64,000 bases of DNA from Candidatus Hydrogenedens sp. (GTDB taxonomy: Bacteria; Hydrogenedentota; Hydrogenedentia; Hydrogenedentales; Hydrogenedentaceae). The notes beneath the pieces were generated by a model, which had not been told where the DNA came from, ran no database searches, and worked only from the letters and a program-made list of their open reading frames with translations. Both the position numbers and the translations under genes were made by a program. Position 1 is the first letter of the stretch; each line of letters opens with the position of its first letter. The stretch is from NCBI GenBank assembly GCA_049968235.1, contig JBMFRC010000015.1, positions 1 to 64,000 of the forward strand, in the 5' to 3' direction. This document shows positions 28,256-50,443 of the stretch, piece by piece.

Positions 28256-28324
28256 GATTTCTCCCTACGGCTTTATTTAATGGATTTTACTTTTCTGAAA
28301 GGTAGAAATTTACATATAAGAAAT

Positions 28325-29687: not shown

Positions 29688-29776
29688 AAAAGTGGCATTA
29701 TTATAAAGTGATATAATTCATGTTATAATTGTATACTATTGTTGTGAACAATAAGAGCACAACTGGAGAAATTTAT

Positions 29777-32700
29777 ATGAGAAAATCTGTATATTTTTTG
29801 TGTTTTCAAAGCATCCTATTTTTCACAATATTGTTGACAATTACAGGTTGTCCTCGAGAAGAAGTGGGAGGTTATTTAATTGTAGAACCGACATCGGTGG
29901 ATTTGGGTTCTAATGATGATAGTGCAGACATTCTGGTATGGAAAAATACAACGACCAGTTCTATAGGTCCAATTGTTGTTGAATCCCAAATTCCGTGGAT
30001 TTCTGTGGAAGGTTGTGCTACTGTTAATGATGAATGTTATAGTTTGGGACCTTTGGATAAAAAACGCATACGGATAAGAATAGACAGGGAAAAAACAGAC
30101 CTCGGACCTAATTCAGGAAATATAATCGTTCGGGCTACGAATGCTCCTTCAACAACGGTCCTGATAACTTTAATTGATTTAATAAAAGTGGATTTTGATG
30201 CTTCGAGTAAATTTACGACAGTAAACGAGGCAATTAGATTTTTTAATCAAAGTGCAGTTCAATCAGGGACTATACGAAAAGTAACATGGGATTTTGGAGA
30301 TGGTCAAACCTCTAATGATTATAATCCAACATATTTCTATCAGAAACCCGGTAATTATACAGTTACCTTGACTGTAGAGACTGATAAAGGTATTGAGAAA
30401 AGAGTAAAAGAGAATTTTATAAATGTAATTAGTGGTAACCTTACTGTTGATTTTTCTGCAAGTTCTCAGATAGTTCTATTGGGCGAGGAAGTTCAGTTAA
30501 TAGATAGAAGTCGTTCCGAAAAAGAAAATATTATTAATCGTTTCTGGGATTTCGGAGATGGAAAAACCAGTAATGAAGTAAATCCAAGGCATAAATATGA
30601 AAATCCTGGAATTTATTCCGTTACTTTAACTGTATATACAGAGAATCAAAATAAATCATTAACTAAAGAAGGGTATATAACTGTTCAAGAAGGTGTGCCT
30701 CCTAAAGCAAAATTCTCTGTTAGTCAAATCAAACCATTTATATATATTCCGGTTCAATTTTCTGATTTATCGGAAGCAGGAAGTTCGCCTATTACTGACT
30801 GGTTATGGGATTTTGGCGATGGAAACACTTCAACAGAACAAAATCCGCAATATGCGTTCACAAGGATTGGGAATCAGCAAATAAAATTAACAGTTAAGAA
30901 CAAGTTCGGTATTAGTTCCTTTTCACTGCCTGTAGAAGTTATTTATCTACCTCCTACCGCAGAATTTTCTGCTGAACCACTTGTTTTGTATGAAGGAGAA
31001 TCGGTTTTCTTTGCTGATTTATCCATAAAGGGGACAGAACGAATCATTCGCTGGTTGTGGAATTTTGGAGATGGTGGTACCGAGACCATAGAATATCAAC
31101 CCTATTCTCATGAGAATGGGAATACAAGATATGCCTATGCACAACCCGGTATTTATTCCGTATCTCTAACGGTAAATACAAGCACAACTTCAAATAATGA
31201 AAGTAGTATTACAAAAAGTTCTTATATTACAGTTCACAAACCACCTGTGCCCCAATTAAGTGTTTCTACAAGAAGCCCTGTAATACAGAAAGAAGTGCTT
31301 TTCCTCAATCGAACAGCAATAGGAACAGAGACAGAGTTGACTTTTGAATGGAATTTTGGCGATGGGTCTCCTGTCAAAACTATGAACACTACGGATTCTG
31401 TTTCACATATTTATTCAGAAGCCGGAGTTTATGATGTTACATTAAAGGTAAAAACGCCATTAAAAACATTCGAAAGTGAACCTGTTAAAGTTTATGTAGA
31501 TGCTCCACCTATTCCAGATTTTGAGTATACCCCCAAACGGATAACAGTAGAAGATTTAGTACAGTTTACGGATTTGTCTAACTCTGAAGGAACTCGACCT
31601 ATAATAGGTTGGGTATGGTCATTTGGCGATGGTTCTGGTGTATCAACCATGCAAAACCCAACACATCGCTTTGAAAGTCCCGGAAAATATAAAGTAGAGT
31701 TGTATTTAGTATTTACCCATTCCAAGAGTGGAGAGCAACTTAAAACATCTGCAGTTTCAAAAACATTGACCATCGGTTCTGCAATTCCTCCAACAGCCGG
31801 ATTTAAAATTGAAAGTCCTTGTGCCATTGTAGGAAGTGAAGTAAAGTTTTACGACCAATCAAAAACGGGAACAGCACCCATTGTCAGTTGGGAATGGGAT
31901 TTTGGTGATGGTGAAACTTCAAATGACCCATCACCAATACATGTATATTCTACTCCAGGAACTTATACCGTAAAATTAAAAGTTCAAACAGAAGGGGGAC
32001 TTGAATCAGAAGTCGTAAAACAAGATTGCATAGACGTAAGTAATTATGCAAGTCCTTTAGATATATTTGTAAGAGAACGCGACTCTGAATATACATGGAC
32101 AACGCCGGTAGAATATCCTGTAAATTATACCTCAGGTTCAGTTTCTATACGATTAGCGACCGCATATATAACGCGAATGACATCACAAGCCTGGCGCGAG
32201 GCAGATGATTTGTATAGTGGAAGAATATGGAAACATAATTTGGCCATTATTGTTCCAGAACGAAAACGAAATAATACCGCCTTATTATTCATTGATGGAG
32301 GTAACATCAATAGTAATCCACCTAATGAATCAGAAAGACTGTTCTTTGGTGAACTTGCCGCTTTATCCGGCTCTGTAATTGTTCATATAGACAATGTTCC
32401 TAACCAGCCTATTGTATTTATCGATGACTACGATGCAGAAAGGAATGTTATTCTTAAGTCGCGTACAGAGGATGACATTATTGCTTATAGTTATGACAAG
32501 TATATGAATGAATATAAGAATGGTAACGACGATTATCATTGGCCATTATTACTGGCAATGGCAAAATCTGCTGTCCGTGCTATGGATACAACCCAATTTA
32601 TATTGGAAGATAATGCACCATCGGAATTTATTATATCAGGAGGTTCGAAACGCGGATGGACTACATGGTTAACAGGATTAACAGACTGTCGTATAAAAGC

Positions 32701-34540
32701 AATAGCTCCACTTGTTATAGATGTCCTGAATATGGACAAGCAAATGGAACATCATAAAAATGTCTACGGTTATTGGGCACCTTCTATTTATGCCTATGCA
32801 CAGATGAAAGTTTTTGACAGACTTATTCCTGACGGCGGAAATCTGTTACCTGAAGCAGAGGCTCTTCTAAAACTTATAGACCCGTATGAGTATTTGGAAA
32901 GAATGCAGAATATTCCCAAGTTTATTTTAAATTCATCCTGCGATGAATTCTTTGTACCCGATTCTTCTTTATGGTATTTCAAGGATTTGTTGGGAGAGAA
33001 ATATCTAAATTATGTTCCTAATGTCTCTCATGGACTTGGGAATGAATTTAGTTTTGAGACAGATGCGGTGCAAAATTTGTTCGCATGGTTTTTAGCAAAA
33101 ACTCAAAATATTCAATTACCCACTTTCACATGGCAGAAGGTTACAAATGGAAATGCAAATACATTACAGGTGGTTGTAAATAGCCAGTTTACATCTTTAA
33201 TAAAAGAAGTAAAACTATGGCAATGCAATAATCCATATGCAAGAGATTTTAGAAAATACAAGATTGATAGCATTGGAGTTCAGTATCAAAGTGAAATATT
33301 ACAACCTGTAACCCCGGGCGTTTATCAAGCAACGGTAAATACCCCTTCACAGGGCTATACGGCGTATTTTATTCAGTTAACATTTAATAATCCAGCAAGA
33401 TTTCAAATGGCGGTTCCGGGGCTAACAGTTCCTTCATTAGTCTATACAACTTCTATTTATATCACTCCGGAAACTTATCCTGAATACACCTCGGAGAGAT
33501 ACACAAATTACAAATATCCATATTTAGTTCTTCGTGGTTCTCCTTACGAAATGGGTAGAGACTATGGAGATTTAATGAGAAATGAAATCATAAACCATGC
33601 TAATTATGTGTTGAGCAATTTAGGGAGATTTGGTGTTACTCAGACAAATCTTGATAACGCGTGGAGTATTCAACAAGGAAATCTTGATGAGAGAATACAA
33701 CAAGAATTGCAGGGTATTTCAGATAGCACAGGAATTAATTATGACGCATTAGGGAAACTGCAATTGGTTGAATGCCTGAGTCCGTATTCGACCACAAAAT
33801 CTTCGGGGTCTTTATTATGGTCAACGGCTACCAATATGCCTTCATTCTTCGATTACGCCCCATTAATTCAAACTTATTCATTAAATAGACAGTTGTATAA
33901 TGGTGGACAACAAACCTACCCGGTGGTTATATTTTATATACCTGAACATGGATTTCCCCATGTGTTATTCACTTTCGCCGGAATGGTTGTTAGTAGAGCA
34001 GGAGTTAATGTGGCAGGATTAACATATGGAGATATACCTGTATCTGGTGAAAGTGTCGTGCTGAATGAGAATATGCTAACTGCATTTCGTAGTGCAATGT
34101 ATGATGTCAATAGACTAAATTCACTTATAGAATGGACGGATATGTCTTCGTTAGGTAGATTGCACTCCTATTTATTAGGAGATGGAAGATACGAATTAAG
34201 AGGTGCAAAATATCTGGTCAAATCATCATCAAGGTTGTTAGTAAGAGATAATGATACAAATGATGATTATCGACCTAATATCTTACCAAATATTGTTTAT
34301 GATGCTGATACGGCAACGAGGGCAAATAATATTTATACATTAATCCGAGATAACTATGGACAATTAGTTATATCTGGGCTATATACCTTATCACAAAGGG
34401 GAGCCGTTGCTAATTCAAACTTGATGAATCTTGTAATTGATGCTACCGCTTTGAAGGGATATATTGCTGTTGCGAATGGGACACAAGGCGCCTCTACACA
34501 AACATTTGAAATCTATGATTTTCAATCTATTTTACCGTAA
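29777..34540 (+). CDS. Giant lipoprotein. It has an N-terminal Ig-like region, seven PKD domains, a central domain of uncertain family and a C-terminal peptidase-C45 (acyl-CoA:6-APA acyltransferase-like) Ntn-hydrolase-like domain.
   Basis: The tracked ORF starts at 29729. The lipoprotein signal MRKSVYFLCFQSILFFTILLTITGC begins at 29777. Seven W(D/N/S)FGDG PKD motifs are present. The C-terminal segment YLVLRGSPYEMGRDYGDLM...ECLSPYS parallels the N-terminus of C45/AAT proteins and a Cys-Thr/Ser nucleophile site. Confidence 0.6.
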   Translation: MRKSVYFLCFQSILFFTILLTITGCPREEVGGYLIVEPTSVDLGSNDDSADILVWKNTTTSSIGPIVVESQIPWISVEGCATVNDECYSLGPLDKKRIRIRIDREKTDLGPNSGNIIVRATNAPSTTVLITLIDLIKVDFDASSKFTTVNEAIRFFNQSAVQSGTIRKVTWDFGDGQTSNDYNPTYFYQKPGNYTVTLTVETDKGIEKRVKENFINVISGNLTVDFSASSQIVLLGEEVQLIDRSRSEKENIINRFWDFGDGKTSNEVNPRHKYENPGIYSVTLTVYTENQNKSLTKEGYITVQEGVPPKAKFSVSQIKPFIYIPVQFSDLSEAGSSPITDWLWDFGDGNTSTEQNPQYAFTRIGNQQIKLTVKNKFGISSFSLPVEVIYLPPTAEFSAEPLVLYEGESVFFADLSIKGTERIIRWLWNFGDGGTETIEYQPYSHENGNTRYAYAQPGIYSVSLTVNTSTTSNNESSITKSSYITVHKPPVPQLSVSTRSPVIQKEVLFLNRTAIGTETELTFEWNFGDGSPVKTMNTTDSVSHIYSEAGVYDVTLKVKTPLKTFESEPVKVYVDAPPIPDFEYTPKRITVEDLVQFTDLSNSEGTRPIIGWVWSFGDGSGVSTMQNPTHRFESPGKYKVELYLVFTHSKSGEQLKTSAVSKTLTIGSAIPPTAGFKIESPCAIVGSEVKFYDQSKTGTAPIVSWEWDFGDGETSNDPSPIHVYSTPGTYTVKLKVQTEGGLESEVVKQDCIDVSNYASPLDIFVRERDSEYTWTTPVEYPVNYTSGSVSIRLATAYITRMTSQAWREADDLYSGRIWKHNLAIIVPERKRNNTALLFIDGGNINSNPPNESERLFFGELAALSGSVIVHIDNVPNQPIVFIDDYDAERNVILKSRTEDDIIAYSYDKYMNEYKNGNDDYHWPLLLAMAKSAVRAMDTTQFILEDNAPSEFIISGGSKRGWTTWLTGLTDCRIKAIAPLVIDVLNMDKQMEHHKNVYGYWAPSIYAYAQMKVFDRLIPDGGNLLPEAEALLKLIDPYEYLERMQNIPKFILNSSCDEFFVPDSSLWYFKDLLGEKYLNYVPNVSHGLGNEFSFETDAVQNLFAWFLAKTQNIQLPTFTWQKVTNGNANTLQVVVNSQFTSLIKEVKLWQCNNPYARDFRKYKIDSIGVQYQSEILQPVTPGVYQATVNTPSQGYTAYFIQLTFNNPARFQMAVPGLTVPSLVYTTSIYITPETYPEYTSERYTNYKYPYLVLRGSPYEMGRDYGDLMRNEIINHANYVLSNLGRFGVTQTNLDNAWSIQQGNLDERIQQELQGISDSTGINYDALGKLQLVECLSPYSTTKSSGSLLWSTATNMPSFFDYAPLIQTYSLNRQLYNGGQQTYPVVIFYIPEHGFPHVLFTFAGMVVSRAGVNVAGLTYGDIPVSGESVVLNENMLTAFRSAMYDVNRLNSLIEWTDMSSLGRLHSYLLGDGRYELRGAKYLVKSSSRLLVRDNDTNDDYRPNILPNIVYDADTATRANNIYTLIRDNYGQLVISGLYTLSQRGAVANSNLMNLVIDATALKGYIAVANGTQGASTQTFEIYDFQSILP

Positions 34541-38050: not shown

Positions 38051-38962
38051 TTAACCAATAAAATATTGAAAATTCTTATCAATAAGAGGCTCTATATCTT
38101 TCTTATAGATAATCGGTTCACTCACTTCATTTTTATGTTGTTCCCAAAAAGATTTCCACTCTTCTATATTATCAATTTTTTTATTGTTTAATTCTATTTT
38201 CCACAGGTTATTTAATGCTTCTTTACTCGAATTGGCAATTCTTGGTTCTGGATGGCTAAGGTTTTCTATAAGAACAGGTGTTACAGATTTTAATCCTACA
38301 TGGGCTATTGCATAATTTGTTATGATACATACATCGATATCCGGGTCAACTAACCCACGAATAATTAAATTATAACTTTCTGTATCTTTTGCAATGGCTA
38401 AAAGTTCAATGGCTTTTCCACGTACTGTCGGTGCGGAATCAAGAATTTTATCTCTTAAAATTTTTATCGTTTTATCTTTATTTATCTTATATAAAATTTC
38501 TAAAATATGCGGTGTGATTGTAGGGGAATAAGAGGGAAGATAGTATTCTAAATAAGGGAAGATATCCATTGTTTTTTGAAGTTCTAATAATCCATTTTTA
38601 GCAGTAACACGGTCAACTTCTTCGCCCCATTGAATTCTACTAATTAGTGCTTCAACCTGTGCTCGTTGGTCTTTATTTAATCCCGTTTTTTCGGTAAGTA
38701 ATTTGTCTTTTTCTTCCCATTCCTTTTTTGCTTCATCTAAATTTATTTCACCTGTTTTATCGTTTTTTTGGATGTTAGCAATTTCGTCTTTTGTGTATTT
38801 AAATATTTTCTTCCCTACCTGTATCGTGTAAATTCCATCGGCTGATTCATCAACGATTTGCCCATCAAAAGTAATACCACTTTTTAAGGTAAAGGTATCT
38901 GGAAAAGTGAAAATACATATAAAAGACGCGAACAAAAAAGCAAAAATGAACCTTATACCCAT
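38051..38962 (-). CDS. HEAT/PBS-lyase-repeat protein with an N-terminal signal or anchor.
   Basis: HEAT-like repeats are present (for example PTVRGKAIELLAIAKD..., DPDIDVCIITNYAIAHVG, PEPRIANSSKEAL). The gene lies 33 nt downstream of the GspK-like gene on the same strand. Confidence 0.45.
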   Translation of the reverse strand: MGIRFIFAFLFASFICIFTFPDTFTLKSGITFDGQIVDESADGIYTIQVGKKIFKYTKDEIANIQKNDKTGEINLDEAKKEWEEKDKLLTEKTGLNKDQRAQVEALISRIQWGEEVDRVTAKNGLLELQKTMDIFPYLEYYLPSYSPTITPHILEILYKINKDKTIKILRDKILDSAPTVRGKAIELLAIAKDTESYNLIIRGLVDPDIDVCIITNYAIAHVGLKSVTPVLIENLSHPEPRIANSSKEALNNLWKIELNNKKIDNIEEWKSFWEQHKNEVSEPIIYKKDIEPLIDKNFQYFIG

Positions 38963-38995
38963 TTTAATCCTCCTATAAAAGATATTTATTAAAAA

Positions 38996-41326
38996 TTATT
39001 GGAAGTAGAATGCAATTTTTCTATAACTAACGACATTAGGGTCGGTAATTTCAAGAAATCTCCGTACACGCGGGTCATAATACATTGTTAAACCAATACC
39101 AACACCATTGTTCGCAGGAACAAATACTCCTAAATCTGCTGAGACTATACCACCACGAACAATCATTTTCCCGTATGTGTTGGAATTATGTCTTGTTTTA
39201 CTTCTCACGATACACCAGATAGAGTTGTTGCTATATAGAAGACCATCGAATTGGAATGGTCGCCCCGAATCGGGACGACTTAATTCATCTTTAAACCAGA
39301 TGCGCCGTAGAGTATCTTCGCTAATCCAGTTCATATCAGGATTACAATAGTGATAAGTAGCACGAGTTAAGATATCCAGTGGCAATCCTTTTTGAATTAG
39401 GTAATCACGTAGTAGTTTTACCCCGGCTTCGTTATACTTTACCGCATGTTCATCAGTTGCATCGTAAATATAAATTTTATCCGGTTGACTTGCCCGTAAG
39501 CCATAAAAACGAGGAGTATAATTGGGGTCTGCTAATGCTTTCTGTAATTCCATACGATTAAAAAGTTTTAATTCCGAGGTAGTGAAACTAAATTGTTGTC
39601 CTTTTCTTCCAGCCACAATTTGACCTGCATCTACTGAATCAGGGTCAAAATATCCCCAACGCAAAGTTTCTGTTACATTATTAATTGTCACCTTATTTGT
39701 TCTGTTTGCATTTCTGGTATCAATGCTATATTGAGTCCATAGGGGGTATTTTTCATTATTTCTTGCACTATGGTTAACACCACGAACGGTTAGGTAATCA
39801 CCAACCATAATACTTCCCCCTGCAACGAGTGCAAAGGCATTGGTAGTTCCATCTTCTGCTTTTCCAAATTCACCCGGAGCATCCGCATAGGTTACATCTC
39901 CAACAACATAAACATTTCCCCTTACCAGTAACTGTCCTTCACCTTTAATTTTACCTGCAATAACTAAATCTCCATTTACAGCAACGGTTCTTTCTATCTG
40001 TATGGGGTCTTGTTCCGTGCCGATAAGTATGAGATTACCATCATAAGTTCCTGTCGTTGATAGACTATTGATAGCAGAATTCGACGCGGTAGGTAATGGA
40101 TTATTTATATTCGCAGGTATATATACAGAACCACGAGGAACACCGTAGGCAACACCGGAAGTTATTTGTCCTGGTGGTGGGGCTTCTCCTTCTACTATTG
40201 TATTATCAAAATGAACTCTTCCATTGGCAGTATTCAAAACCACCTGGAATTCCTCATCATCAACAATTCGATTATTATTATCATCCGGAAATGGAGCCGG
40301 AAAGTTATTAGGCACGATCCCATCTGTTTGAGCTTGCTCATCCGTAGGATAATTCATATATAGGTTTGCAAATTGAACGAGGTCCCCATTAGGAGTTCTC
40401 CCTGCATTTTGTAAGTTTGTAATTATCATGTTCCCAGAAGAGTCTTGAACAATTTTACCATTGTTATTATTAATACGATATGATTTCAGAGTTGAACTTT
40501 GGAGTTCTGAAACAGAAAATGGGGTTCCATCAGGTTTATAAACACGACCTCTTGTATATAATGTACCTGCAGCACGACTATCTGCCTCTGTTGGTCTTAC
40601 TAACATAGATTCCAGAGATGCAACCTTAATACGGTCAAAAGTATTATAATTTGCAGGGTCAGTATTTCTAAACAAGTCTAAGGACTGAAATTCAGCATGA
40701 CATAGAATACAACTTATATTATTTGCAAGAACGGCAAATTCTGTATGAGGACTCGCTCTGCCCCCAATATTAACAACCTGAACCGCTGTTTTTGCAATAC
40801 CATTCCGTCTCGCAGTGGATGTTATTGTAAGGAATGAACGAGACCATTCATCATATCTTGCAATATGAACACTTTCAATTTGTGCTACTTCTTGGTTATT
40901 GTTAGGGTCCCTTAACACAATGGGTTGATTAATCAAAGCCCAACCTCTCCGGTCATATCCAGCAGGATAGGTTTCAAAAATACCGTTCCCATTTCCCGTT
41001 TCATCAATATCTTTGGTCCCATTAAAATTCAGGTCTTCATTTATTGGGATCCCTAAATTATTATCAAGATAGTACCGATAAGAAGCCCAATTTTTTGTTG
41101 TATTTCCACTTGTTTCTATATAATCGTCCCAGAGCCTTTTTAATGCTAGGTCTATACCTGCTTGCGATGCTTCCCTGAGAATAATATCATCTGCAGAAAA
41201 ATCCGTTTCTCTCTTGTTATTTACAACTATCGCGGAAATAACTCCTATAGCACCCAAAATTACAATTATAGAAATCGTGGTAAAAATTAACGCTATACCA
41301 GATTCTTTTTTTCTTACATTACGCAT
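38996..41326 (-). CDS. Large (776 aa) GspK-like minor pseudopilin or pilus-tip protein candidate.
   Basis: The N-terminus ESG|IALIFTTISIIVILGAIG is prepilin-like and lacks Glu+5, as in GspK. The gene is the third in an operon after two bona fide prepilin-type genes. The long C-terminal region is beta-rich. Confidence 0.4.
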   Translation of the reverse strand: MRNVRKKESGIALIFTTISIIVILGAIGVISAIVVNNKRETDFSADDIILREASQAGIDLALKRLWDDYIETSGNTTKNWASYRYYLDNNLGIPINEDLNFNGTKDIDETGNGNGIFETYPAGYDRRGWALINQPIVLRDPNNNQEVAQIESVHIARYDEWSRSFLTITSTARRNGIAKTAVQVVNIGGRASPHTEFAVLANNISCILCHAEFQSLDLFRNTDPANYNTFDRIKVASLESMLVRPTEADSRAAGTLYTRGRVYKPDGTPFSVSELQSSTLKSYRINNNNGKIVQDSSGNMIITNLQNAGRTPNGDLVQFANLYMNYPTDEQAQTDGIVPNNFPAPFPDDNNNRIVDDEEFQVVLNTANGRVHFDNTIVEGEAPPPGQITSGVAYGVPRGSVYIPANINNPLPTASNSAINSLSTTGTYDGNLILIGTEQDPIQIERTVAVNGDLVIAGKIKGEGQLLVRGNVYVVGDVTYADAPGEFGKAEDGTTNAFALVAGGSIMVGDYLTVRGVNHSARNNEKYPLWTQYSIDTRNANRTNKVTINNVTETLRWGYFDPDSVDAGQIVAGRKGQQFSFTTSELKLFNRMELQKALADPNYTPRFYGLRASQPDKIYIYDATDEHAVKYNEAGVKLLRDYLIQKGLPLDILTRATYHYCNPDMNWISEDTLRRIWFKDELSRPDSGRPFQFDGLLYSNNSIWCIVRSKTRHNSNTYGKMIVRGGIVSADLGVFVPANNGVGIGLTMYYDPRVRRFLEITDPNVVSYRKIAFYFQ

Positions 41327-41336
41327 ACGCTATCTC

Positions 41337-42002
41337 CTAATTTTCTAATTTAACTATCCCGCTGAGTTCGGCGCGAATTAAGGGTCCTTCTCCCGGACCC
41401 ATTCGTTTCGTTCCTTCTAAACGAATGTATAACAAAGTAGGGGTATTTTCACTATCACTTCTATCAGGTAATAATTGAAACTCTACATTACTAATACAAT
41501 TTGCACTCCCTATTACGCGTCTATTATTCCCCTGAACCATTACTAATCTTCTTGTTAATGCCCTATCTCCATTTGTATCTTCACCTGCATCTAAAATGGC
41601 ATTCGGAGGAACTCCTTCAGAAGAACGGTCTTCATTTTCATATTGAACAAGAATCTGTTGGGATGATTGGACAAATGCAGGTGTGTTGACGGGTACGGGG
41701 ACAAAAAATCGCAAGCCCCGTCCATCATTTTGGACTTGAATTGCCTCTGCCCCTGCAGGTGCTATAGGAGGAGTAACATTCGTAGTAACTTCTGTATATG
41801 CCTGTTTTACTAATTCTGAAAGTTCATTAAATGTATTTCGCAAATCAGAATCGATTTCATTTTGAGCATAAGAAAGTGATGAGGATTTTACAGAAGATTG
41901 TAACGCCAGAAAACTCAGTAAGGAAATGATACCCATCAATGCAACGGATATAGTTACTTCTATTAAAGTAAATCCAAAAATTCTTTTTTTCATATCACAC
42001 AT
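41337..42002 (-). CDS. Type IV pilin-like / T2SS pseudopilin (GspH/I/J-like) with a class III signal peptide.
   Basis: The KKRIFG|FTLIEVTISVALMGIISLL prepilin-peptidase cleavage and methylation motif is present. The real start is probably the fourth-residue Met, at 41993. Confidence 0.7.
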   Translation of the reverse strand: MCDMKKRIFGFTLIEVTISVALMGIISLLSFLALQSSVKSSSLSYAQNEIDSDLRNTFNELSELVKQAYTEVTTNVTPPIAPAGAEAIQVQNDGRGLRFFVPVPVNTPAFVQSSQQILVQYENEDRSSEGVPPNAILDAGEDTNGDRALTRRLVMVQGNNRRVIGSANCISNVEFQLLPDRSDSENTPTLLYIRLEGTKRMGPGEGPLIRAELSGIVKLEN

Positions 42003-42011
42003 AGCCTTATT

Positions 42012-42476
42012 TTATATTGAAGTTAATATCGTAGCAACTGTATCTCTTATGGGATGCCCACTGAGGGATGTCCATGTGGCAGTTACATAAACCTGAACAG
42101 GATTATTTGTCCCACCGGCGGGTTCACCATTCATATTTCTGCAGACTACATTTATTTGTAAGTCTGGTATGGGTATAGGATGTCCTTCTACTGATACCAT
42201 TGTTAACCAATCATTGGATGTTTTCCCGTTTATCCATGCATAAAAACCTTCCCAGTTGAAATTCTCATTACTTACAGAAAAGTCCTTCCTTTTTTCGCGA
42301 ATGGCTTCAATTACAGCACGACAAGCATGTAAAGCCTGTATCCGTTCCCTCTGGATTTGTAGATTGTTGTGGGAAGAAACCAATATAACTGAAGTTACTC
42401 CTACCACAAAAGCAAATATAGCCACTGCAATCATAATTTCTATTAATGTTAAGCCCTCATTTCCTTTTTTACTCAT
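42012..42476 (-). CDS. Type IV pilin-like / T2SS major-pseudopilin-like protein (GspG-like).
   Basis: The KKGNEG|LTLIEIMIAVAIFAFVVG N-terminal prepilin motif is present in a 154-aa protein. Confidence 0.7.
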   Translation of the reverse strand: MSKKGNEGLTLIEIMIAVAIFAFVVGVTSVILVSSHNNLQIQRERIQALHACRAVIEAIREKRKDFSVSNENFNWEGFYAWINGKTSNDWLTMVSVEGHPIPIPDLQINVVCRNMNGEPAGGTNNPVQVYVTATWTSLSGHPIRDTVATILTSI

Positions 42477-42660
42477 ATATCCAAATCCTGCATTTTTATT
42501 TGTCTAATACAATATATTTATCATCTTTTTAGAATTATAACATAAAAATATGGAAAATATTTCAAAAAAATGTGAAAGTCCGCATTAAATATGGAATATT
42601 TCTCGCAGAAAAAGGAGGATTCGTAGTTACTTTTTCATTAACTACTTATGTCAGTATATT

Positions 42661-45009: not shown

Positions 45010-45744
45010 TTATATTGTATTTTGTTTCATATCATTGATTAAACTTGTCCGAAAATCTTCGGGTATATCCATGTTATTAATAATAAGTGAATTGATAATA
45101 CATTCCAGGATGTATGTGTAATCTGAAGACACATTCTCAGATTGTTTGTTAAAATAAAAATGCTTCGGTGTATTTATTTTTATTTTCTGAGGTTCAAGAT
45201 TTTGAGTAATTACGATTCTAACTTTTTCTATAGAGATAGAACGAATACTTCGGGTCATTCCTACATTTGAATATAGTTCTTTTTTTAATATTTTTAATAG
45301 AGAACCTATGTTAGTTCCTTTACCCGGAATATAATATAAGTTTAGTTGCAAATTATCTATATATATGTCATAGTTTATTTTAAAATTGGAAGAGATAGAT
45401 GCCTTTGTCTGTATATGTTCCGATTGTAAAACAGGTTCGTCGGGGAAGGGGACAAGATTTTTTACATAAAAATTCTTAAAAGTAATAGAAAAATCCCAAA
45501 GATTTACATAAGCCTTGTCAAAGTAAAAAGTGATATTCGACGACCGTGTTAAATATTTTTCAGCGATTTTAGTAATAAGAAATGTCCGAGTATATGGGTA
45601 AAATACAGAAACACCACACAAAAGAAATAACAAACTACCTGTAAAAGTCATAGCATAAAAAACTTTTTGTTTGAAGGTAGTTTTTACTTTTTTCTTTTTA
45701 GTGGTTCTTTTCTTGTTAGATTTTTTATTTGAAGTTTCAGTCAA
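45010..45744 (-). CDS. Hypothetical protein with a Lys-rich cytoplasmic N-terminus and a single TM anchor.
   Basis: [21 protein letters not shown] is followed by a TM helix. The gene overlaps the upstream gene by 8 nt. No family was recognised. Confidence 0.4.
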
Positions 45745-46471
45745 AGGTATGAGTCCAGTTTAATACCTTTTTATGAAGGGATTTCTGTTTTTTCTTTAAA
45801 TTCTCTTTACTGTCTTTTAACTTCATAGTAAGAGGGACTTCTACAGGCACCTGTTTTGGACTCCAGGAAAAACAGAAAAGGGTGTCATAACCGTTTAATA
45901 TAAGATATATCTTTACATTTTGAAGTCCTTCTTTAGGTACAAGGATTTCATTTGCGTTGTAAGGGAAAATAAGGGTAACCTTTCGTTTAAATCTGCGAAG
46001 GGTTCCCGATGGTATTTCTTCCAGCGATTTGTCAACAACAATCTGTGTAGGATGTATCTCTGTATTTTCATTCAAGAGCATATAAATATTAAACCCCCTT
46101 AAACTAACACTATCATAAGCAATACTCATATCCTGAAAGGAAGAATCCAATACAATTTCAATTGTAACTCCATGAGTTGTTGAAGAATTCGGTGACATCC
46201 ATACCGCCTGACTTTCAGGGTTAAATATTTTTGGATAAGGACCCCGCATACATTGAATATTTGAAACAGGATTATCCGGGACAAAAGGTATTAGTTCCCC
46301 TGCCGATACTGTTTCCTCCCCCTTCTTTTTATCTGCACTTGTTTTACAACTTATTCCGGAAACAAGAAAATAACTACATAAAATTAATGTAAATACAATA
46401 CTCGTGATACAATTAAAACTTAAATAAAAACAAGTGTAATTTTCTGAATATTTTATATTTCTGTTTGGCAT
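45737..46471 (-). CDS. Hypothetical exported protein or lipoprotein candidate.
   Basis: A hydrophobic N-terminal segment is followed by Cys. The protein is 244 aa. No family was recognised. Confidence 0.4.
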   Translation of the reverse strand: MPNRNIKYSENYTCFYLSFNCITSIVFTLILCSYFLVSGISCKTSADKKKGEETVSAGELIPFVPDNPVSNIQCMRGPYPKIFNPESQAVWMSPNSSTTHGVTIEIVLDSSFQDMSIAYDSVSLRGFNIYMLLNENTEIHPTQIVVDKSLEEIPSGTLRRFKRKVTLIFPYNANEILVPKEGLQNVKIYLILNGYDTLFCFSWSPKQVPVEVPLTMKLKDSKENLKKKQKSLHKKVLNWTHTFD

Positions 46472-46532
46472 ATCTTTATGAAACTTTGTTTTACTTATAT
46501 TAACAGATTTAATGAAGAATAAAAAATATACA

Positions 46533-47273
46533 TTACTTATTTTTTAATGGTTCTTTAGTCGAAACATCTACATGAGGTTTCGGTAAATTGGATTGATTAT
46601 CTTTTTTTAAAGGCAAATCAATGGCACTTCTGCTCTCGTCTCCACCTTTACCATATTTCATTAAAACCATTTCACCCTCAGTAGTGGATAATTTCACAAT
46701 ACCCAGAGGTTTTACCTCATCATTAAGCCAGATTTCTTTTGTTGTATTATCTTCACTAATTCTGTAATGTTTTGCTTTTATTTTACCATTCTTAAACTCA
46801 ATATCTTCTTCACCAATAAGGTTTTTCTTTGAAGGTGTATCCGTATTTCCTGACATAGTTTCAACATCAATATTTTGGGGGGGATTGGCTCCTTCACGAA
46901 CTACTATTTTGTGAATTTTCTCTTTCCCATTGTTATCATAAGAAATCAGAAAACGATATACAGAAGGAAATCCTTCCATAGGGATAATTTCCGATTCTAA
47001 CCACAATGCAGAGGTATTTTCATCTATTTTTTCTATTCCCGTTAATGCTTGCCTTAATAAAATATGTGTTTTTGTGGATTTATCCGTTATTTCATAAATA
47101 GCCCAAACACCCGGTTCGGATGATAGTATCTTCCCTTTAAATAAATCCTCTATAAAACTCTGGGTATTTCCTATTTTAGGGGAGAGAATATAAAGAAGAA
47201 ATATCTGGATATATAAAAATTTAGTCCAGAAAAAATATTTTTTTGTTCTTATAAAAGAAAAATTACAAAGCAT
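46533..47273 (-). CDS. Hypothetical secreted protein.
   Basis: The protein has a signal-peptide-like N-terminus and is 246 aa. The gene lies 12 nt downstream of the GHKL ATPase gene. Confidence 0.4.
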   Translation of the reverse strand: MLCNFSFIRTKKYFFWTKFLYIQIFLLYILSPKIGNTQSFIEDLFKGKILSSEPGVWAIYEITDKSTKTHILLRQALTGIEKIDENTSALWLESEIIPMEGFPSVYRFLISYDNNGKEKIHKIVVREGANPPQNIDVETMSGNTDTPSKKNLIGEEDIEFKNGKIKAKHYRISEDNTTKEIWLNDEVKPLGIVKLSTTEGEMVLMKYGKGGDESRSAIDLPLKKDNQSNLPKPHVDVSTKEPLKNK

Positions 47274-47285
47274 ATTTTATATAAA

Positions 47286-48527
47286 CTAAATTAATAGTTT
47301 TTGGATTTCAGTTTCTTTGTCTTCGGGTAAAGAAATAATCTCATTTACTATATGAGTAACTTTATTTGAATCTGTTTGTATCAAGGTGTAAAGAAGTTTC
47401 AGAATTAATTGCTGGGTTAATTTTGGGGCGTCATTGAGTTCACGAACCATCTGGAAAAGATGAGTGGCGTATATGTCAAATATTTTTATAGAAATACTGT
47501 TTTCCGGATTAGAAATCTCCTCAGGAGTTATAGGATAAATCCCATCATCTTTCCACTCCTGAATCATCAATTGTGTTTTTTCTGCTTCCCGAAGAATAAA
47601 ATGTTCACGAAGTCTTTTTTTGCAAAATTGAGTGAGAAAACGGACATCTTCACATAACTCGTCTGTTTGAAGTAGCCCTTGCTGGTCTAATAATTTGATA
47701 TATTCTGACTTAAAATATGCAGTATAACTAAATCCACGAAAATGTAATCGAGGGAAAGGAATAAATCTTGCAAATCCATTTTCATCGCAGAATAAAAGTC
47801 CCCGTCTTCCCGATGTGTTCCACTCTACAATAGTTAAGTCTGCATTGATTGTTTTACCACTGGGAACAACTATATCGTGGTATTTATATTCATACTGGTT
47901 TTTCTGAACATTTTGCGGGTCAATAGATATTCCATCGTATATAATTTTTACATTTGGGTATTGCGTTAAATAGGGTGCAAAAATATCAGTAATTTCTTCC
48001 ATTGCAAGTGTCCCACGTACAAGGGAAATGTTATCATTGGGTAAAGCAATTCGGACATACATACCTGTCGCGTTTTCATACTCTGTAACAGGTTCCGGTT
48101 CAGACACCTCAAATACAGATAAATTCTCAATATTTCCCTTAATATAGAAACAATAACGATTATTTCCCTCACAATAAATACTTTTCCATGTTACTTTGTT
48201 TCCCAAAGAAAAAGCACGAAATCGTCCTTTACCATATTTCCCATGCAGGATTCTCTTCTCATTGGGGGTAACATATTCTCCCTTTTTCCATGAACCACCT
48301 AAATTGCTGAAAGAAATTAGGGCATCTTCAAATCGCAATCCATTGCCATCATCAATAATGTCAATATAGTCCAATCCACTTAATTCATTCTCAACAAAAC
48401 GAACCTGGACATGTTTTGCCTCTGCATCGAGAGCGTTCCAGATTAATTCGACTATGGCATTTAGCGGACGAGTTTTACCTATGGTTTCAAGATGGTCTTC
48501 TTTAACCTGAATGTGTATTGTTCGCAT
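47286..48527 (-). CDS. Standalone GHKL (Bergerat-fold, HATPase_c_3-like) ATPase.
   Basis: The N-box ELIWNALDAEA and the G1-box IDIIDDGNGL are present, followed by KYGKGRFRAFSLG. There is no HisKA, receiver, MutL or Hsp90 context. The protein is 413 aa. Confidence 0.55.
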   Translation of the reverse strand: MRTIHIQVKEDHLETIGKTRPLNAIVELIWNALDAEAKHVQVRFVENELSGLDYIDIIDDGNGLRFEDALISFSNLGGSWKKGEYVTPNEKRILHGKYGKGRFRAFSLGNKVTWKSIYCEGNNRYCFYIKGNIENLSVFEVSEPEPVTEYENATGMYVRIALPNDNISLVRGTLAMEEITDIFAPYLTQYPNVKIIYDGISIDPQNVQKNQYEYKYHDIVVPSGKTINADLTIVEWNTSGRRGLLFCDENGFARFIPFPRLHFRGFSYTAYFKSEYIKLLDQQGLLQTDELCEDVRFLTQFCKKRLREHFILREAEKTQLMIQEWKDDGIYPITPEEISNPENSISIKIFDIYATHLFQMVRELNDAPKLTQQLILKLLYTLIQTDSNKVTHIVNEIISLPEDKETEIQKLLI

Positions 48528-48601: not shown

Positions 48602-49924
48602 TTAAGTGATTTTTCGATGGTCTATAACCCTGCATGCTTTCCCTGTGGAACGTTCCAATGTATTTGGAGGCAATAACTCTATATTAACATGAATACCTGT
48701 AATTTCATTAATTTTACGAAGGACTCGGTCTCGTAAAGATTGCATCTCGCTCATCTTATCCGAAATATACCCTGCTTGTAATTCCACTTTTACCGATATT
48801 TCATCTAATATGCCAGGTCTTGTTACTTCAATAAGATAGTGTGGAGCAATGCCCGGAACTTGAAGAATGGCTTCTTCAATTTGAGATGGAAATACATTTA
48901 CGCCTCGAATGATAAGCATATCATCTGAGCGTCCTTTTACACGGGACATCCGTTTTGTTGTTCTTCCACAGGGACATGGACTGGTATCTAAACATGCCAG
49001 GTCCCTTGTTCTATAACGGATTATTGGGAACGCTTCCTTTGTTAAACTTGTAAATACCAGTTCACCGTATTCGCCTTCTTTTACTGGTTCAAGTGTAGAA
49101 GGATTTAAACATTCTACAATGAAATGGTCCTCCTGAATATGCATACCTTTCTGCAAATAACATTCACCACTTACTCCCGGTCCGATTACCTCGCTAAGTC
49201 CATAATTATTAAAAGCCTTAATTCCCAATTGCTCTTCTATTTCTTTTCGCATATCTTCAGTCCACATTTCACCCCCAAAATGTCCATATTTTAATGATAG
49301 ATTTTTAGGGTCTATCCCTGTTTGCTTTGCATGTTCTGCGATATTTAATGCATAACTGGGTGTACATATTAACACATCAGGTTTTAAATCTTGGATAAGC
49401 AAAATTTGTCTTGCCGTGTTACCGGACGCAGCAGGAATAATGGTAGCACCAACCTTTTCTGCTCCGTAATGTAATCCAAAACCACCTGTGAAAAGTCCAT
49501 AACCAAATGATATTTGCACAAAATGTTCTTTTCGTAACCCGCCTGCCACAAGAAACCGTGCACATAGATTTGCCCATGTCTCAATGTCTTTATGTGTATA
49601 TGCCACCAATGTGGGTTTGCCTGTTGTTCCAGAAGAACCATGGATTCGTGCCAGTTCATATTTAGGAACCGCAACCAATCCTAAAGGATAATTTTGCCTT
49701 AAATCTTCTTTTACAGTAAAAGGTAATCTTCTTAAATCATCAAGAGACTTTATATCCTCAGGTTTAACTTTGTATTTGTCGAAAGAGTTTTTATAGAAAG
49801 GAACGGTATTATAAACTCTTTCCACTACTTTTTTTAACAATTCTAATTGTAACTTGTGCCGTTCTTCCGGTTTAATTGTTTCCGCAGAGTCCCAGATAGA
49901 ATTTTCGAACGGTAACGAATTCAT
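48602..49924 (-). CDS. Phenylacetate-CoA ligase family (PaaK / coenzyme F390 synthetase-like aryl-CoA ligase).
   Basis: An AMP-binding core is present ([12 protein letters not shown]). The protein is ~440 aa with the family-typical C-terminus. Confidence 0.8.
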   Translation of the reverse strand: MNSLPFENSIWDSAETIKPEERHKLQLELLKKVVERVYNTVPFYKNSFDKYKVKPEDIKSLDDLRRLPFTVKEDLRQNYPLGLVAVPKYELARIHGSSGTTGKPTLVAYTHKDIETWANLCARFLVAGGLRKEHFVQISFGYGLFTGGFGLHYGAEKVGATIIPAASGNTARQILLIQDLKPDVLICTPSYALNIAEHAKQTGIDPKNLSLKYGHFGGEMWTEDMRKEIEEQLGIKAFNNYGLSEVIGPGVSGECYLQKGMHIQEDHFIVECLNPSTLEPVKEGEYGELVFTSLTKEAFPIIRYRTRDLACLDTSPCPCGRTTKRMSRVKGRSDDMLIIRGVNVFPSQIEEAILQVPGIAPHYLIEVTRPGILDEISVKVELQAGYISDKMSEMQSLRDRVLRKINEITGIHVNIELLPPNTLERSTGKACRVIDHRKIT

Positions 49925-49940
49925 TTGTATTTACCTTATA

Positions 49941-50381
49941 TTATTGATTGGCTTTTTCATATAATTGAACACTATCCAGAACATTAATTCCTTTCCCTTG
50001 CAATGCCTTTATAGCGATGTCAGGTTGGTCAAATCGAAAAACAATAACTGCTTTGTCCCCACTGCGGAAGGTAAATGCATACATATATTCTATATTTAAA
50101 CCTTCGTTCTCAATTACTTCCAGAATTTTGGCAAGTCCGCCGGGTTTGTCTTCAACTTCAGTAGCAACTACTTCTGTTGTATTGACAATAAACCCCTCCT
50201 GTTCAAGAACTTCTTTTGCCTTCTTCCAATCTTGAATAATAAGACGGAGAATTCCAAATTGTTGAGTATCTGCAAGTGATAAGGTAACTATGTTTATATT
50301 ATTCCGGGCTAATACCTTACATGGCTCACTAATTCTGCCGGGTTTGTTTTCTAAAAACATCGAAATCTGTTGTATTTTCAT
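49941..50381 (-). CDS. ACT-domain protein, of the PaaK-associated small regulatory type.
   Basis: The protein is 146 aa with two ACT-like beta-alpha-beta-beta-alpha-beta halves. It is flanked by two PaaK-family genes. Confidence 0.6.
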   Translation of the reverse strand: MKIQQISMFLENKPGRISEPCKVLARNNINIVTLSLADTQQFGILRLIIQDWKKAKEVLEQEGFIVNTTEVVATEVEDKPGGLAKILEVIENEGLNIEYMYAFTFRSGDKAVIVFRFDQPDIAIKALQGKGINVLDSVQLYEKANQ

Positions 50382-50396
50382 ATATTACTCCCTCAT

Positions 50397-50434
50397 AGTA
50401 AGTAAGTTTATTTATTTATTTATTTATTCATTCA
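50397..50434. repeat. Compound tetranucleotide microsatellite (AGTA)2-(TTTA)5-(TTCA)2 in the intergenic region.
   Basis: Read directly from the sequence: agtaagtaagtttatttatttatttatttattcattca. It lies between the ACT gene start and the stop of the paaK-2 gene. Confidence 0.8.
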
Positions 50435-50443
50435 TTATAAAAA

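What the first reader, a model, noticed from the sequence alone, without database searches (positions are those of the whole stretch)
38051..42476. Orphan pseudopilin operon ending in a 776-aa GspK-like giant and a HEAT-repeat protein
Two genes with canonical G|FTLIE and G|LTLIE prepilin leaders are followed by a 776-aa protein. Its N-terminus (G|IALIF..., no Glu+5) mimics the GspK-type minor pseudopilin, but it is more than twice GspK size and is rich in predicted beta structure. A signal-anchored HEAT-repeat protein follows. No secretin, ATPase, platform protein or prepilin peptidase is nearby. This looks like a cassette for the tip or cap of a pseudopilus or type IV filament with a novel large terminal subunit. 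The 776-aa protein also contains a single CILCH (CxxCH) motif.
Basis: partly seen in the sequence, partly recalled or inferred. Interest (0 to 1): 0.6.

Follow-up and report, generated by a model that had tools for sequence, protein, structure and literature searches.

The report
Pilus-tip gene cassette with ComZ-like pilin
This is a four-gene cassette from a Hydrogenedentes bacterium that most likely builds the tip of a type IV pilus or pseudopilus; its giant subunit is a relative of the known Thermus tip pilin ComZ, but it carries an invariant heme-type CxxCH motif that ComZ lacks.

Summary
Four tightly spaced minus-strand genes (42476-38051) encode two Glu5 prepilins, a 776-aa protein with a G|IALIF N-terminus lacking Glu5, and an exported HEAT-repeat protein.

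The tip-complex reading is supported, but the large terminal subunit is not a new kind.
- Profile comparison with ComZ gives 96% probability over the pilin domain.

The cassette therefore resembles an I-J-K/PilV-W-X priming module with a ComZ-type or cyanobacterial PilX-type solenoid cap. The fold of the first pilin was not established.

The gene order is conserved across the Hydrogenedentes clade, with the HEAT gene downstream in 51 of 52 loci. No secretin, ATPase, platform or peptidase gene appears in the window or in about 94 related loci.

The family also occurs in Planctomycetota and in Meiothermus and Calidithermus, where it is annotated as PilX family.

The new element is the CxxCH motif. 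C206, C209 and H210 are invariant in 105 sequences down to 26% identity. They lie in an insertion absent from ComZ. Heme binding is inferred, not shown.

The parts
42477..42660 (-). AT-rich intergenic region upstream of the first pilin gene, with promoter-like hexamers (TTCACA / CATATT at 42576..42547, and a TATAAT within 'tgttataat') and an AGGA ribosome-binding site
   Evidence: These are consensus matches only. No Rfam family reaches threshold anywhere in the window.
42012..42476 (-). Minor prepilin 1 (154 aa): G|LTLIE class III signal with Glu5. Its size and position suggest the GspI/PilV role, but the fold was not established.
   Evidence: Pfam N_methyl E 1.8e-6. Weak NCBIfam hits to ComGE and GspI cover the N-terminal helix only. 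hhalign to E. coli GspI and to the Thermus 186-aa pilin also covers only the N-terminal helix. Present upstream of the cassette in 32 of 34 clade loci.
41337..42002 (-). Minor prepilin 2 (221 aa as ORF, probably 218 aa from Met4 at 41993): G|FTLIE with Glu5 and a GspJ/PilW-like fold. It carries an invariant acidic loop, NED...N.ILD.GED.N.D..L.R, that looks like a Ca-binding site.
38996..41326 (-). 776-aa terminal (PilX/GspK-class) pilin of the ComZ type: pilin domain (about residues 1-195), a family-specific CxxCH insert (about 203-249), and a beta-solenoid with accessory subdomains (about 250-760). The last strand (761-775) probably returns to the pilin sheet.
41222..41299 (-). Codons for G10-V35: class III-type signal junction and hydrophobic alpha1N (G|IALIFTTISIIVILGAIGVISAIVV), with no Glu at +5
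   Evidence: G10 and A12 are invariant in 55 homologues, and none has Glu at +5. Four of 14 diverse relatives hit Pfam PilX_N (best E 3.7e-7).
40697..40711 (-). CILCH (C206-x-x-C209-H210): family-invariant CxxCH motif and candidate covalent heme c attachment site
   Evidence: Invariant in A1 (55 of 55) and A2 (105 of 105, down to 26% identity). Exactly one CxxCH sits at this position in all but one of the full-length distant representatives. Absent from six Thermus ComZ orthologues. Falls in an insertion relative to ComZ.
38051..38962 (-). Exported HEAT-repeat protein (303 aa): Sec-type signal, small N-terminal beta domain (mature start at the invariant Asp-Thr), charged helix, HEAT repeats. 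It is a fixed fourth gene of the cassette and a candidate periplasmic assembly factor or chaperone.
   Evidence: Pfam HEAT_2 E 3.2e-7. Weak N-terminal hits to the PTPDL and Lepto_7_Nterm families. An identical protein is named 'HEAT repeat domain-containing protein [Candidatus Hydrogenedens sp.]'. Immediately downstream of the large gene in 51 of 52 clade loci, although identity falls to 25-35%.

Best explanation
The locus is a self-contained operon for the priming and tip complex of a type IV filament, either a type IV pilus or a T2SS-like pseudopilus. The motor, platform, secretin and prepilin peptidase must be encoded elsewhere in the genome.

The two small Glu5 prepilins would form the base. 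One is GspJ/PilW-like. The other is presumed to be GspI/PilV-like.

The 776-aa protein is the distal, Glu5-less PilX/GspK-class subunit. Like Thermus ComZ and cyanobacterial PilX, it carries a bulky triangular beta-solenoid of the ice-binding-protein type grafted onto the pilin fold. It can therefore only sit at the filament tip, where it would cap or plug the filament and present a binding surface.

Relative to ComZ it has an extra segment of about 45 residues at the junction between the pilin domain and the solenoid. This segment holds the invariant CxxCH, which most plausibly binds one heme c covalently in the periplasm before assembly.

The exported HEAT-repeat protein that always follows is inferred to be a dedicated periplasmic partner, either a chaperone or assembly factor or an extra tip component.

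Shown here: gene content, folds, remote homology to ComZ, synteny, motif invariance, and absence of nearby machinery genes.
Inferred: tip location, processing by a prepilin peptidase, heme attachment, the role of the HEAT protein, and the biological function (adhesion, DNA uptake or redox sensing).
For: - ORFs and leader sequences.
- 776-aa model of good confidence (pLDDT 85.3).
- Foldseek top hit and only significant hit is ComZ (E 1.5e-5, prob 1.0).
- Sequence-level link to ComZ: PDB profile hit E 0.0041; hhalign Prob 96%, E 3.8e-9 over 195 columns.
- The Thermus comZ locus has the same order of small pilin, J-like pilin, then ComZ.
- Synteny: pilin-pilin-large-HEAT in the window, L001, L003 and most of 79 metagenomic loci. 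HEAT downstream in 51 of 52, each pilin in 32 of 34.
- Distant relatives in other phyla are also flanked by Glu5 pilins, in either order.
- Four of 14 diverse relatives hit Pfam PilX_N. Meiothermus and Calidithermus members are annotated PilX family.
- CxxCH is invariant in 105 of 105 sequences, absent from ComZ, and lies in an insertion.
- c-type cytochrome candidates occur in related Hydrogenedentes contigs: a protein with 13 CxxCH motifs in L050 and others in L028, L032 and L039. At least some relatives in this clade probably mature cytochromes c.
Against: - No machinery gene (secretin, GspE/PilB, GspF/PilC, PilD) lies in 64 kb or in any related locus. The filament type, T4P or T2SS, is therefore undetermined, and the rest of the genome could not be searched.
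- The window protein itself does not reach any Pfam or NCBIfam pilin model.
- The fold of the first pilin was not determined. Only its N-terminal helix aligns to GspI.
The insertion point of the solenoid and the environment of the CxxCH could not be inspected.
- For heme: there is no cytochrome-c fold or HMM hit. The CxxCH-region profile gives only non-significant PDB hits, a mixture of cytochromes c and a TFIIE zinc ribbon (E at least 0.09).
- No distal His or Met is conserved across the family.
- No Ccm homologue was found in the sampled loci.
Confidence: 0.78

Rival explanations
1. The cassette is the GspI-J-K tip of a type II secretion pseudopilus that pushes exoproteins, such as the many glycoside hydrolases of this organism, through a secretin. 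It would not be the tip of a surface-exposed pilus.
For: The nearest solved folds of the middle pilin are T2SS GspJ proteins (XcpW, EpsJ, GspJ). The pilin domain of the large protein resembles GspK/XcpX. The gene order matches gspI-J-K. Related contigs encode DUF1559/SBP_bac_10 pseudopilin-like proteins typical of Planctomycetes-like lineages. Flanking genes in the window are glycosidases and sugar-utilisation genes.
Against: The best structural and profile match is to ComZ, a type IV competence-pilus protein. The same solenoid architecture in cyanobacteria belongs to T4P PilX. The GspK alpha-helical insertion domain is absent. No gspC-O genes are nearby. Flanking genes differ between genomes, so the neighbouring glycosidases are not linked to the cassette.
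Confidence: 0.2
2. The cassette is the DNA-receptor tip of a competence pilus, functionally equivalent to ComZ-PilA2 of Thermus thermophilus.
For: ComZ is the closest characterised relative by fold and by profile. The gene order resembles the Thermus competence pilin locus. ComZ binds DNA and is proposed to sit at the tip (PMC6561018).
Against: Homology is detectable only over the pilin domain. The family has a CxxCH insert, about 200 extra residues and a dedicated HEAT partner, all absent from the Thermus comZ locus. One Meiothermus-like contig (L090) carries both a CxxCH-less ComZ-like set and a CxxCH-family set, which suggests different jobs. No other competence genes are nearby.
Confidence: 0.15
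3. The 776-aa protein is not a filament subunit. It would be a signal-anchored periplasmic or surface beta-helix protein, for example a carbohydrate-active enzyme, an adhesin or a monoheme redox protein, that merely sits next to pilin genes.
For: No pilin HMM reaches threshold on the window protein. Beta-solenoids are common in polysaccharide lyases and adhesins. There is no Glu5. ComZ itself is not predicted to be a PilD substrate by PilFind.
Confidence: 0.07

Closest known systems
ComZ of Thermus thermophilus (PDB 6QVI; Salleh et al. 2019, PMC6561018)
   Different: ComZ is 552-585 aa in the six Thermus orthologues examined and has no CxxCH or CxxC. The protein here is 776 aa, has a CxxCH-bearing insert of about 45 residues at the domain junction, and has extra helical subdomains at about residues 520-700. 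There is no HEAT gene in the Thermus locus, and the Thermus locus also encodes GspH/FimT-like pilins and the major pilin PilA4. Sequence similarity in the solenoid is not detectable.
Cyanobacterial PilX proteins (PilX1-3, HpsA/PilX-EPS; bioRxiv 10.64898/2026.02.12.705559)
   Same: They are terminal Glu5-less minor pilins with a bulky ice-binding-like beta-solenoid inserted between the penultimate and last strand. They co-occur with dedicated PilV-type partners and are proposed to plug the tip in organisms that lack PilY1.
   Different: That paper does not mention a heme motif or a HEAT partner. No NCBIfam model other than weak MinC matches hits the 776-aa protein at E up to 1. The phylum is different.
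GspK / XcpX of the T2SS GspI-J-K tip complex (PDB 3CI0, 5VTM)
   Different: GspK is 327 aa and has an alpha-helical insertion domain between strands 3 and 4. Here the insertion is a beta-solenoid. No gsp machinery genes are adjacent.
TfcP of Myxococcus xanthus (PMC8833165)
   Same: It is a single-CxxCH cytochrome c encoded in a minor-pilin/PilY1 cluster and is needed for the tip complex. This gives a precedent for heme proteins in pilus-tip biogenesis.
   Different: TfcP is a separate small soluble periplasmic cytochrome with a classical cytochrome c fold and a distal Cys. It is not incorporated into the pilus. Here the motif is built into the tip pilin, with no cytochrome fold and no conserved distal ligand.

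Membership tests
PilX/GspK-class terminal minor (pseudo)pilin | Class III-type N-terminus: a charged leader, Gly at -1, and a hydrophobic alpha1N of about 20 residues | tested here: met
   MRNVRKKESG|IALIFTTISIIVILGAIGVISAIVV. G10 is invariant in 55 of 55 homologues and present in 103 of 105.
PilX/GspK-class terminal minor (pseudo)pilin | No Glu at position +5 | tested here: met
   Phe at +5 in the window protein. No Glu at this column in the 55 close homologues, and none among the eight commonest residues (95 of 105 sequences) in the diverse alignment.
PilX/GspK-class terminal minor (pseudo)pilin | Pilin fold: a long N-terminal helix packed on an antiparallel beta-sheet | tested here: met
PilX/GspK-class terminal minor (pseudo)pilin | Match to a curated family model (Pfam PilX_N, T2SSK; NCBIfam gspK) | tested here: not met
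   The window protein has no such hit at E up to 1. Four of 14 diverse relatives do hit PilX_N (best E 3.7e-7), and NCBI names Meiothermus and Calidithermus members PilX family.
PilX/GspK-class terminal minor (pseudo)pilin | Cleavage by a prepilin peptidase and incorporation at the filament tip | not testable with these tools
   Needs N-terminal sequencing or mass spectrometry, plus localisation experiments.
ComZ-type solenoid tip pilin | GspK-like pilin domain combined with a large triangular beta-solenoid of the ice-binding-protein fold | tested here: met
ComZ-type solenoid tip pilin | Detectable sequence homology to ComZ | tested here: met
   HMM against PDB: E 0.0041. hhalign of A2 against six Thermus ComZ sequences: Prob 96%, E 3.8e-9. 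The match covers only the pilin domain and the start of the solenoid.
ComZ-type solenoid tip pilin | [quoted passage not shown] | tested here: inconclusive
   The order of secondary structure elements is compatible: sheet 136-191, then the solenoid, then a final 15-residue strand at 761-775. Coordinates could not be inspected.
ComZ-type solenoid tip pilin | DNA binding and a role in natural transformation | not tested
T2SS GspI-GspJ-GspK tip complex | GspJ-fold partner encoded immediately upstream of the K-like gene | tested here: met
T2SS GspI-GspJ-GspK tip complex | GspI-fold first subunit | tested here: inconclusive
   Only the N-terminal helix aligns to E. coli GspI or to the Thermus 186-aa pilin. 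No structure was predicted for this protein.
T2SS GspI-GspJ-GspK tip complex | Embedded in a gspC-O operon with secretin, ATPase, platform and peptidase genes | tested here: not met
   None is found in the 64-kb window or in about 94 related loci by tblastn with E. coli GspD/E/F/O.
c-type cytochrome | CxxCH motif in an exported polypeptide | tested here: met
   CILCH at 206-210, invariant in 105 of 105 sequences. Export is inferred from the pilin-type N-terminus.
c-type cytochrome | Cytochrome c fold or family model, and a conserved distal axial ligand | tested here: not met
   No cytochrome Pfam or NCBIfam hit. The motif-region profile gives only non-significant PDB hits. No conserved His or Met other than H210. 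Five-coordinate or unusually ligated hemes remain possible.
c-type cytochrome | Covalently bound heme | not testable with these tools
   Needs heme staining, pyridine hemochrome or mass spectrometry.

The most novel reading that the evidence does not exclude
The family is a widespread, previously undescribed class of heme-bearing pilus-tip pilins. A ComZ/PilX-type solenoid cap would carry one covalently bound heme c at the junction between the pilin domain and the solenoid. In Hydrogenedentes it would be matured or escorted by a dedicated periplasmic HEAT-repeat protein. The heme would give a type IV filament a redox-active, gas-sensing or ligand-sensing tip, or a heme-dependent folding checkpoint comparable to TfcP acting on PilY1.
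Probability: 0.4. Interest if true: 0.75.

Novelty: new variant of a known kind. Interest (0 to 1): 0.5.

Why it matters
It extends the ComZ/PilX type of solenoid tip pilin from Thermus and cyanobacteria to Hydrogenedentota, Planctomycetota and Meiothermus/Calidithermus. A profile search found 879 clusters (50% identity) at E up to 1e-3. Bulky solenoid caps may therefore be a common alternative to PilY1.

The family-invariant CxxCH gives a concrete, cheap hypothesis to test: a heme covalently attached to a pilus-tip subunit. If that holds, it would connect type IV filaments with redox chemistry in a way different from Geobacter nanowires and from TfcP.

Cultured relatives exist (Meiothermus sp. 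CFH 77666 WP_243455223.1 and Calidithermus chliarophilus WP_245587654.1), so the test does not depend on the uncultured host.

The strictly conserved HEAT partner is a new candidate accessory factor for tip-complex assembly.

Tried and rejected
- Pfam and NCBIfam on the 776-aa protein gave only sub-threshold MinC_C beta-helix matches. MinC was rejected because the match is a generic beta-helix repeat of about 40 residues.
- The close-homologue profile (A1) against PDB sequences gave no hit. Only the broad profile (A2) found ComZ.
- The afdb50 fold library was unavailable.
- The search for related loci with the broad alignments A2 and A3 failed for lack of a conserved 7-10-residue stretch.
- A profile of the CxxCH region alone gave only non-significant hits, a mixture of cytochromes c and the TFIIE zinc ribbon. 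It neither supports nor excludes heme.
- No conserved distal His or Met was found.
- hhalign of the first pilin against GspI and the Thermus 186-aa pilin matched only the N-terminal helix.
- tblastn with E. coli CcmB/C/E/F/G/H found nothing in the sampled loci.
- Rfam found no riboswitch or other RNA family in the window. A c-di-GMP riboswitch upstream of the operon was therefore rejected.
- Literature searches for Hydrogenedentes with pseudopilin or pili, for 'Verru_Chthon cassette', and for pilin with heme motif and solenoid found nothing relevant.
- Weak NCBIfam matches of the pilins to Verru_Chthon cassette proteins C and D cover only the N-terminal helix and fall far below the cutoffs. 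Membership was rejected.
- Model coordinates are not exposed, so 3D contacts around the CxxCH could not be measured.

Full report
**Observation**

Window 38051-42476 holds four minus-strand ORFs separated by 9, 10 and 33 nt.
- 154 aa (MSKKGNEG|LTLIE).
- 221 aa (..RIFG|FTLIE). Orthologues are 212-218 aa, so translation probably starts at Met4.
- 776 aa (..KKESG|IALIF, with no Glu at +5).
- 303 aa.

Both small proteins pass Pfam N_methyl, and the last passes HEAT_2. The 776-aa protein matches no Pfam or NCBIfam family apart from sub-threshold MinC-type beta-helix repeats. CILCH is at residues 206-210.

An AT-rich 184-nt spacer with promoter-like hexamers precedes the first gene. The operon converges on a rhamnosidase-like gene. 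The factual part of the finding is therefore confirmed.

**Source organism and conservation**

Homologues of the 776-aa protein are full-length proteins at 49-93% identity from Candidatus Hydrogenedentes/Hydrogenedentota MAGs, all labelled hypothetical. A protein identical to the HEAT protein is recorded from Candidatus Hydrogenedens sp..

A profile search of 1.84 billion cluster representatives found 879 clusters at E up to 1e-3 and 231 at E up to 1e-30. Named members include:
- Planctomycetota MAGs.
- Meiothermus sp. CFH 77666 and Calidithermus chliarophilus, where NCBI calls them 'pilus assembly PilX family / PilX N-terminal domain-containing protein'.

Four of 14 diverse members hit Pfam PilX_N. 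The window protein does not.

**What the 776-aa protein is**

An AlphaFold2 model built on 55 homologues is confident (pLDDT 85.3, pTM 0.74). It has a long N-terminal helix (2-75), a four-stranded sheet (136-191), a large beta-rich body, and a final long strand (761-775).

- Foldseek against the PDB gives ComZ of Thermus thermophilus (6QVI) as the only significant hit (E 1.5e-5, probability 1.0).
- The ComZ paper describes exactly this combination. ComZ has a GspK-like pilin domain with an ice-binding-type triangular solenoid inserted between the penultimate and last strands. The authors argue that this shape fits only at the pilus tip (PMC6561018).
- A 2026 preprint reports the same architecture for all cyanobacterial PilX proteins, including HpsA. 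It proposes that the solenoid replaces PilY1 as a tip plug.

At the sequence level, a broad family profile finds ComZ as the best PDB hit (E 0.0041). hhalign against six Thermus ComZ orthologues gives 96% probability (E 3.8e-9) over residues 7-274.

Gly10 is invariant. Glu does not occur at +5 in any of the 55 close homologues, nor among the eight commonest residues at that column (95 of 105 sequences) in the diverse alignment.

The protein is therefore a PilX/GspK-class terminal pilin of the ComZ type.

**The partner genes**

The 154-aa pilin aligns to GspI and to the Thermus 186-aa pilin only in the N-terminal helix. Its I/V-type role is inferred from size and position.

The order small pilin, J-like pilin, K-like cap matches both gspI-J-K in E. 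coli and the Thermus comZ locus.

Both the middle pilin and the cap carry conserved acidic 'NED...' loops that resemble Ca-binding sites. ComZ has a DxDxDG motif at the corresponding place.

**Synteny**

In L001 and L003, which are megabase-scale Hydrogenedentes contigs, the four genes recur in the same order between unrelated flanking genes.

A metagenome scan gave 79 more loci. Within the clade at 39% identity or more:
- The HEAT gene lies immediately downstream in 51 of 52 loci with enough sequence.
- Each pilin lies upstream in 32 of 34 loci.
- HEAT and pilin identities fall to 25-35% while the order is kept.

More distant family members are also flanked by two or three Glu5 pilins, before or after the large gene.
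- One is followed by an ankyrin-repeat protein (L007).
- One sits next to a canonical N_methyl/T2SSJ/PilX_N set (L009).
- One contig has both a CxxCH-less ComZ-like set and a CxxCH-family set (L090).

tblastn with E. coli GspD, GspE, GspF and GspO found nothing in the window or in any of these loci. Pfam annotation of the window found no machinery either. The only related item is a 235-aa MshEN-domain protein at 36-743. The cassette is thus a free-standing minor-pilin module that depends on machinery encoded elsewhere. Whether that machinery is T4P-type or T2SS-type cannot be decided here.

**The CxxCH motif**

In the diverse alignment (105 sequences, down to 26% identity) only eight columns are invariant. 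Three of them are C206, C209 and H210. All but one of the full-length distant representatives have exactly one CxxCH at the equivalent position.

The six Thermus ComZ proteins have no CxxC at all. In the profile alignment the motif and the following 40 or so residues form an insertion relative to ComZ, at the junction between the pilin domain and the solenoid.

For an exported protein, an invariant CxxCH with no other invariant Cys or His is most simply read as a covalent heme c site. That is inference from general cytochrome c knowledge, as summarised in PMC8833165.

Evidence on the heme reading:
- Against: no cytochrome fold or model matches.
- Against: a profile of the motif region gives only non-significant hits.
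- Against: no distal His or Met is conserved.
- Against: no Ccm gene was seen in the sampled DNA.
- In favour of feasibility: related Hydrogenedentes contigs encode clear c-type cytochrome candidates, including a protein with 13 CxxCH motifs 4 kb from the cassette in L050.

The only precedent I found linking heme to pilus tips is TfcP of Myxococcus, a separate periplasmic cytochrome that stabilises PilY1. I found no report of a heme motif inside a pilin of this class.

**Mechanism proposed**

The three pilin-like proteins are inserted into the inner membrane. Their globular parts fold in the periplasm, possibly with Ca binding and heme attachment and with help from the exported HEAT protein. 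They then assemble, through their N-terminal helices, into a priming complex on a type IV filament machine. The Glu5-less solenoid subunit is on top.

Polymerisation of a major pilin encoded elsewhere beneath the complex would carry it outward as the tip. Tip location follows from the steric argument made for ComZ. It is inferred here, not shown.

What the tip binds (DNA as in ComZ, a surface or polysaccharide as proposed for cyanobacterial PilX-EPS, or a redox partner or ligand through the heme) is open.

**Verdict**

The 'novel giant subunit' is a member of the known ComZ/PilX solenoid-pilin kind. What is new is a large, multi-phylum subfamily defined by an invariant CxxCH insert and, in Hydrogenedentes, a fixed HEAT-repeat partner.

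I rate it a new variant of a known kind and of moderate interest. It has a cheap decisive experiment: heme staining of a homologue from a cultured organism.

Noticed in passing
window 36-743 (+); L025 5695-6318: A 235-aa protein with a C-terminal MshEN domain, the c-di-GMP-binding N-terminal domain of MshE/GspE-type ATPases, and no ATPase domain. In contig L025 its 64%-identical homologue lies only about 2.8 kb downstream of the HEAT gene (3.7 kb from the large gene). It may be a regulator of the filament system.
   Followed up: partly
L050 3622-4980; L028 4408-5628; L032 4125-4913; L039 8288-8710: c-type cytochrome candidates occur near the cassette in related Hydrogenedentes contigs. L050 has a 452-aa protein with 13 CxxCH motifs 4 kb upstream. 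L028 has a protein with 2 CxxCH motifs directly after the HEAT gene. L032 and L039 have smaller ones.
   Followed up: partly
L090 5006-8729 and 9690-13431; L093 7763-13185: A Meiothermus-like contig carries two minor-pilin sets side by side. One has a 637-aa ComZ-like cap without CxxCH, and the other has the 696-aa CxxCH-family cap, with a response regulator gene between them. Another contig has two CxxCH-family genes in tandem (939 and 837 aa).
   Followed up: partly
L007 5094-6635: In one distant relative the large CxxCH protein is followed by a 506-aa ankyrin-repeat protein instead of a HEAT protein. In L005 two HEAT_2 proteins lie about 2.5 kb downstream. An alpha-solenoid repeat partner may be a recurring theme.
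   Followed up: no
window 41640-41570 (residues about 120-143 of the middle pilin) and 41041-40999 (residues 96-109 of the 776-aa protein): Both proteins carry conserved acidic loops starting with NED (NEDxxxxxxPNAILDxGEDTNxD and NEDLNFNGxxDxDE) that resemble Ca-binding loops. Thermus ComZ has LDLDRDG at the corresponding position.
   Followed up: partly
window 29729-34540 (+): A 1603-aa exported protein with seven PKD domains, a PhoPQ-activated pathogenicity-related (PF10142) hydrolase-like domain, and a C-terminal region of about 430 residues with no family match.
   Followed up: no
window 21410-29500 (-): Two tandem AcrB-type RND transporter genes (1054 and 1226 aa) lie downstream of an HlyD-type membrane-fusion protein gene. 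In the 1226-aa protein the ACR_tran match is split into 4 stretches, which suggests an unusually long insertion.
   Followed up: no
window 45010-48527 (-): Three consecutive genes of 244, 244 and 246 aa with no Pfam match lie directly downstream, on the minus strand, of a 413-aa HATPase_c_3 (GHKL ATPase) gene. Their function is unknown.
   Followed up: no
window 48602-51775 (-): Two paralogous phenylacetate-CoA-ligase-like genes (AMP-binding plus AMP-binding_C_2; 440 and 443 aa) flank a 146-aa gene for an ACT-domain-pair protein.
   Followed up: no
window 51857-54259 (+) and 56138-59968 (-): Large glycoside hydrolases (an 800-aa melibiase/GH31-like protein and a 1276-aa GH116-like protein) lie near a rhamnosidase-like gene, galactokinase and a MalK-type ATPase. 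The region is rich in sugar-utilisation genes, but these neighbours are not conserved next to the cassette in other genomes.
   Followed up: partly
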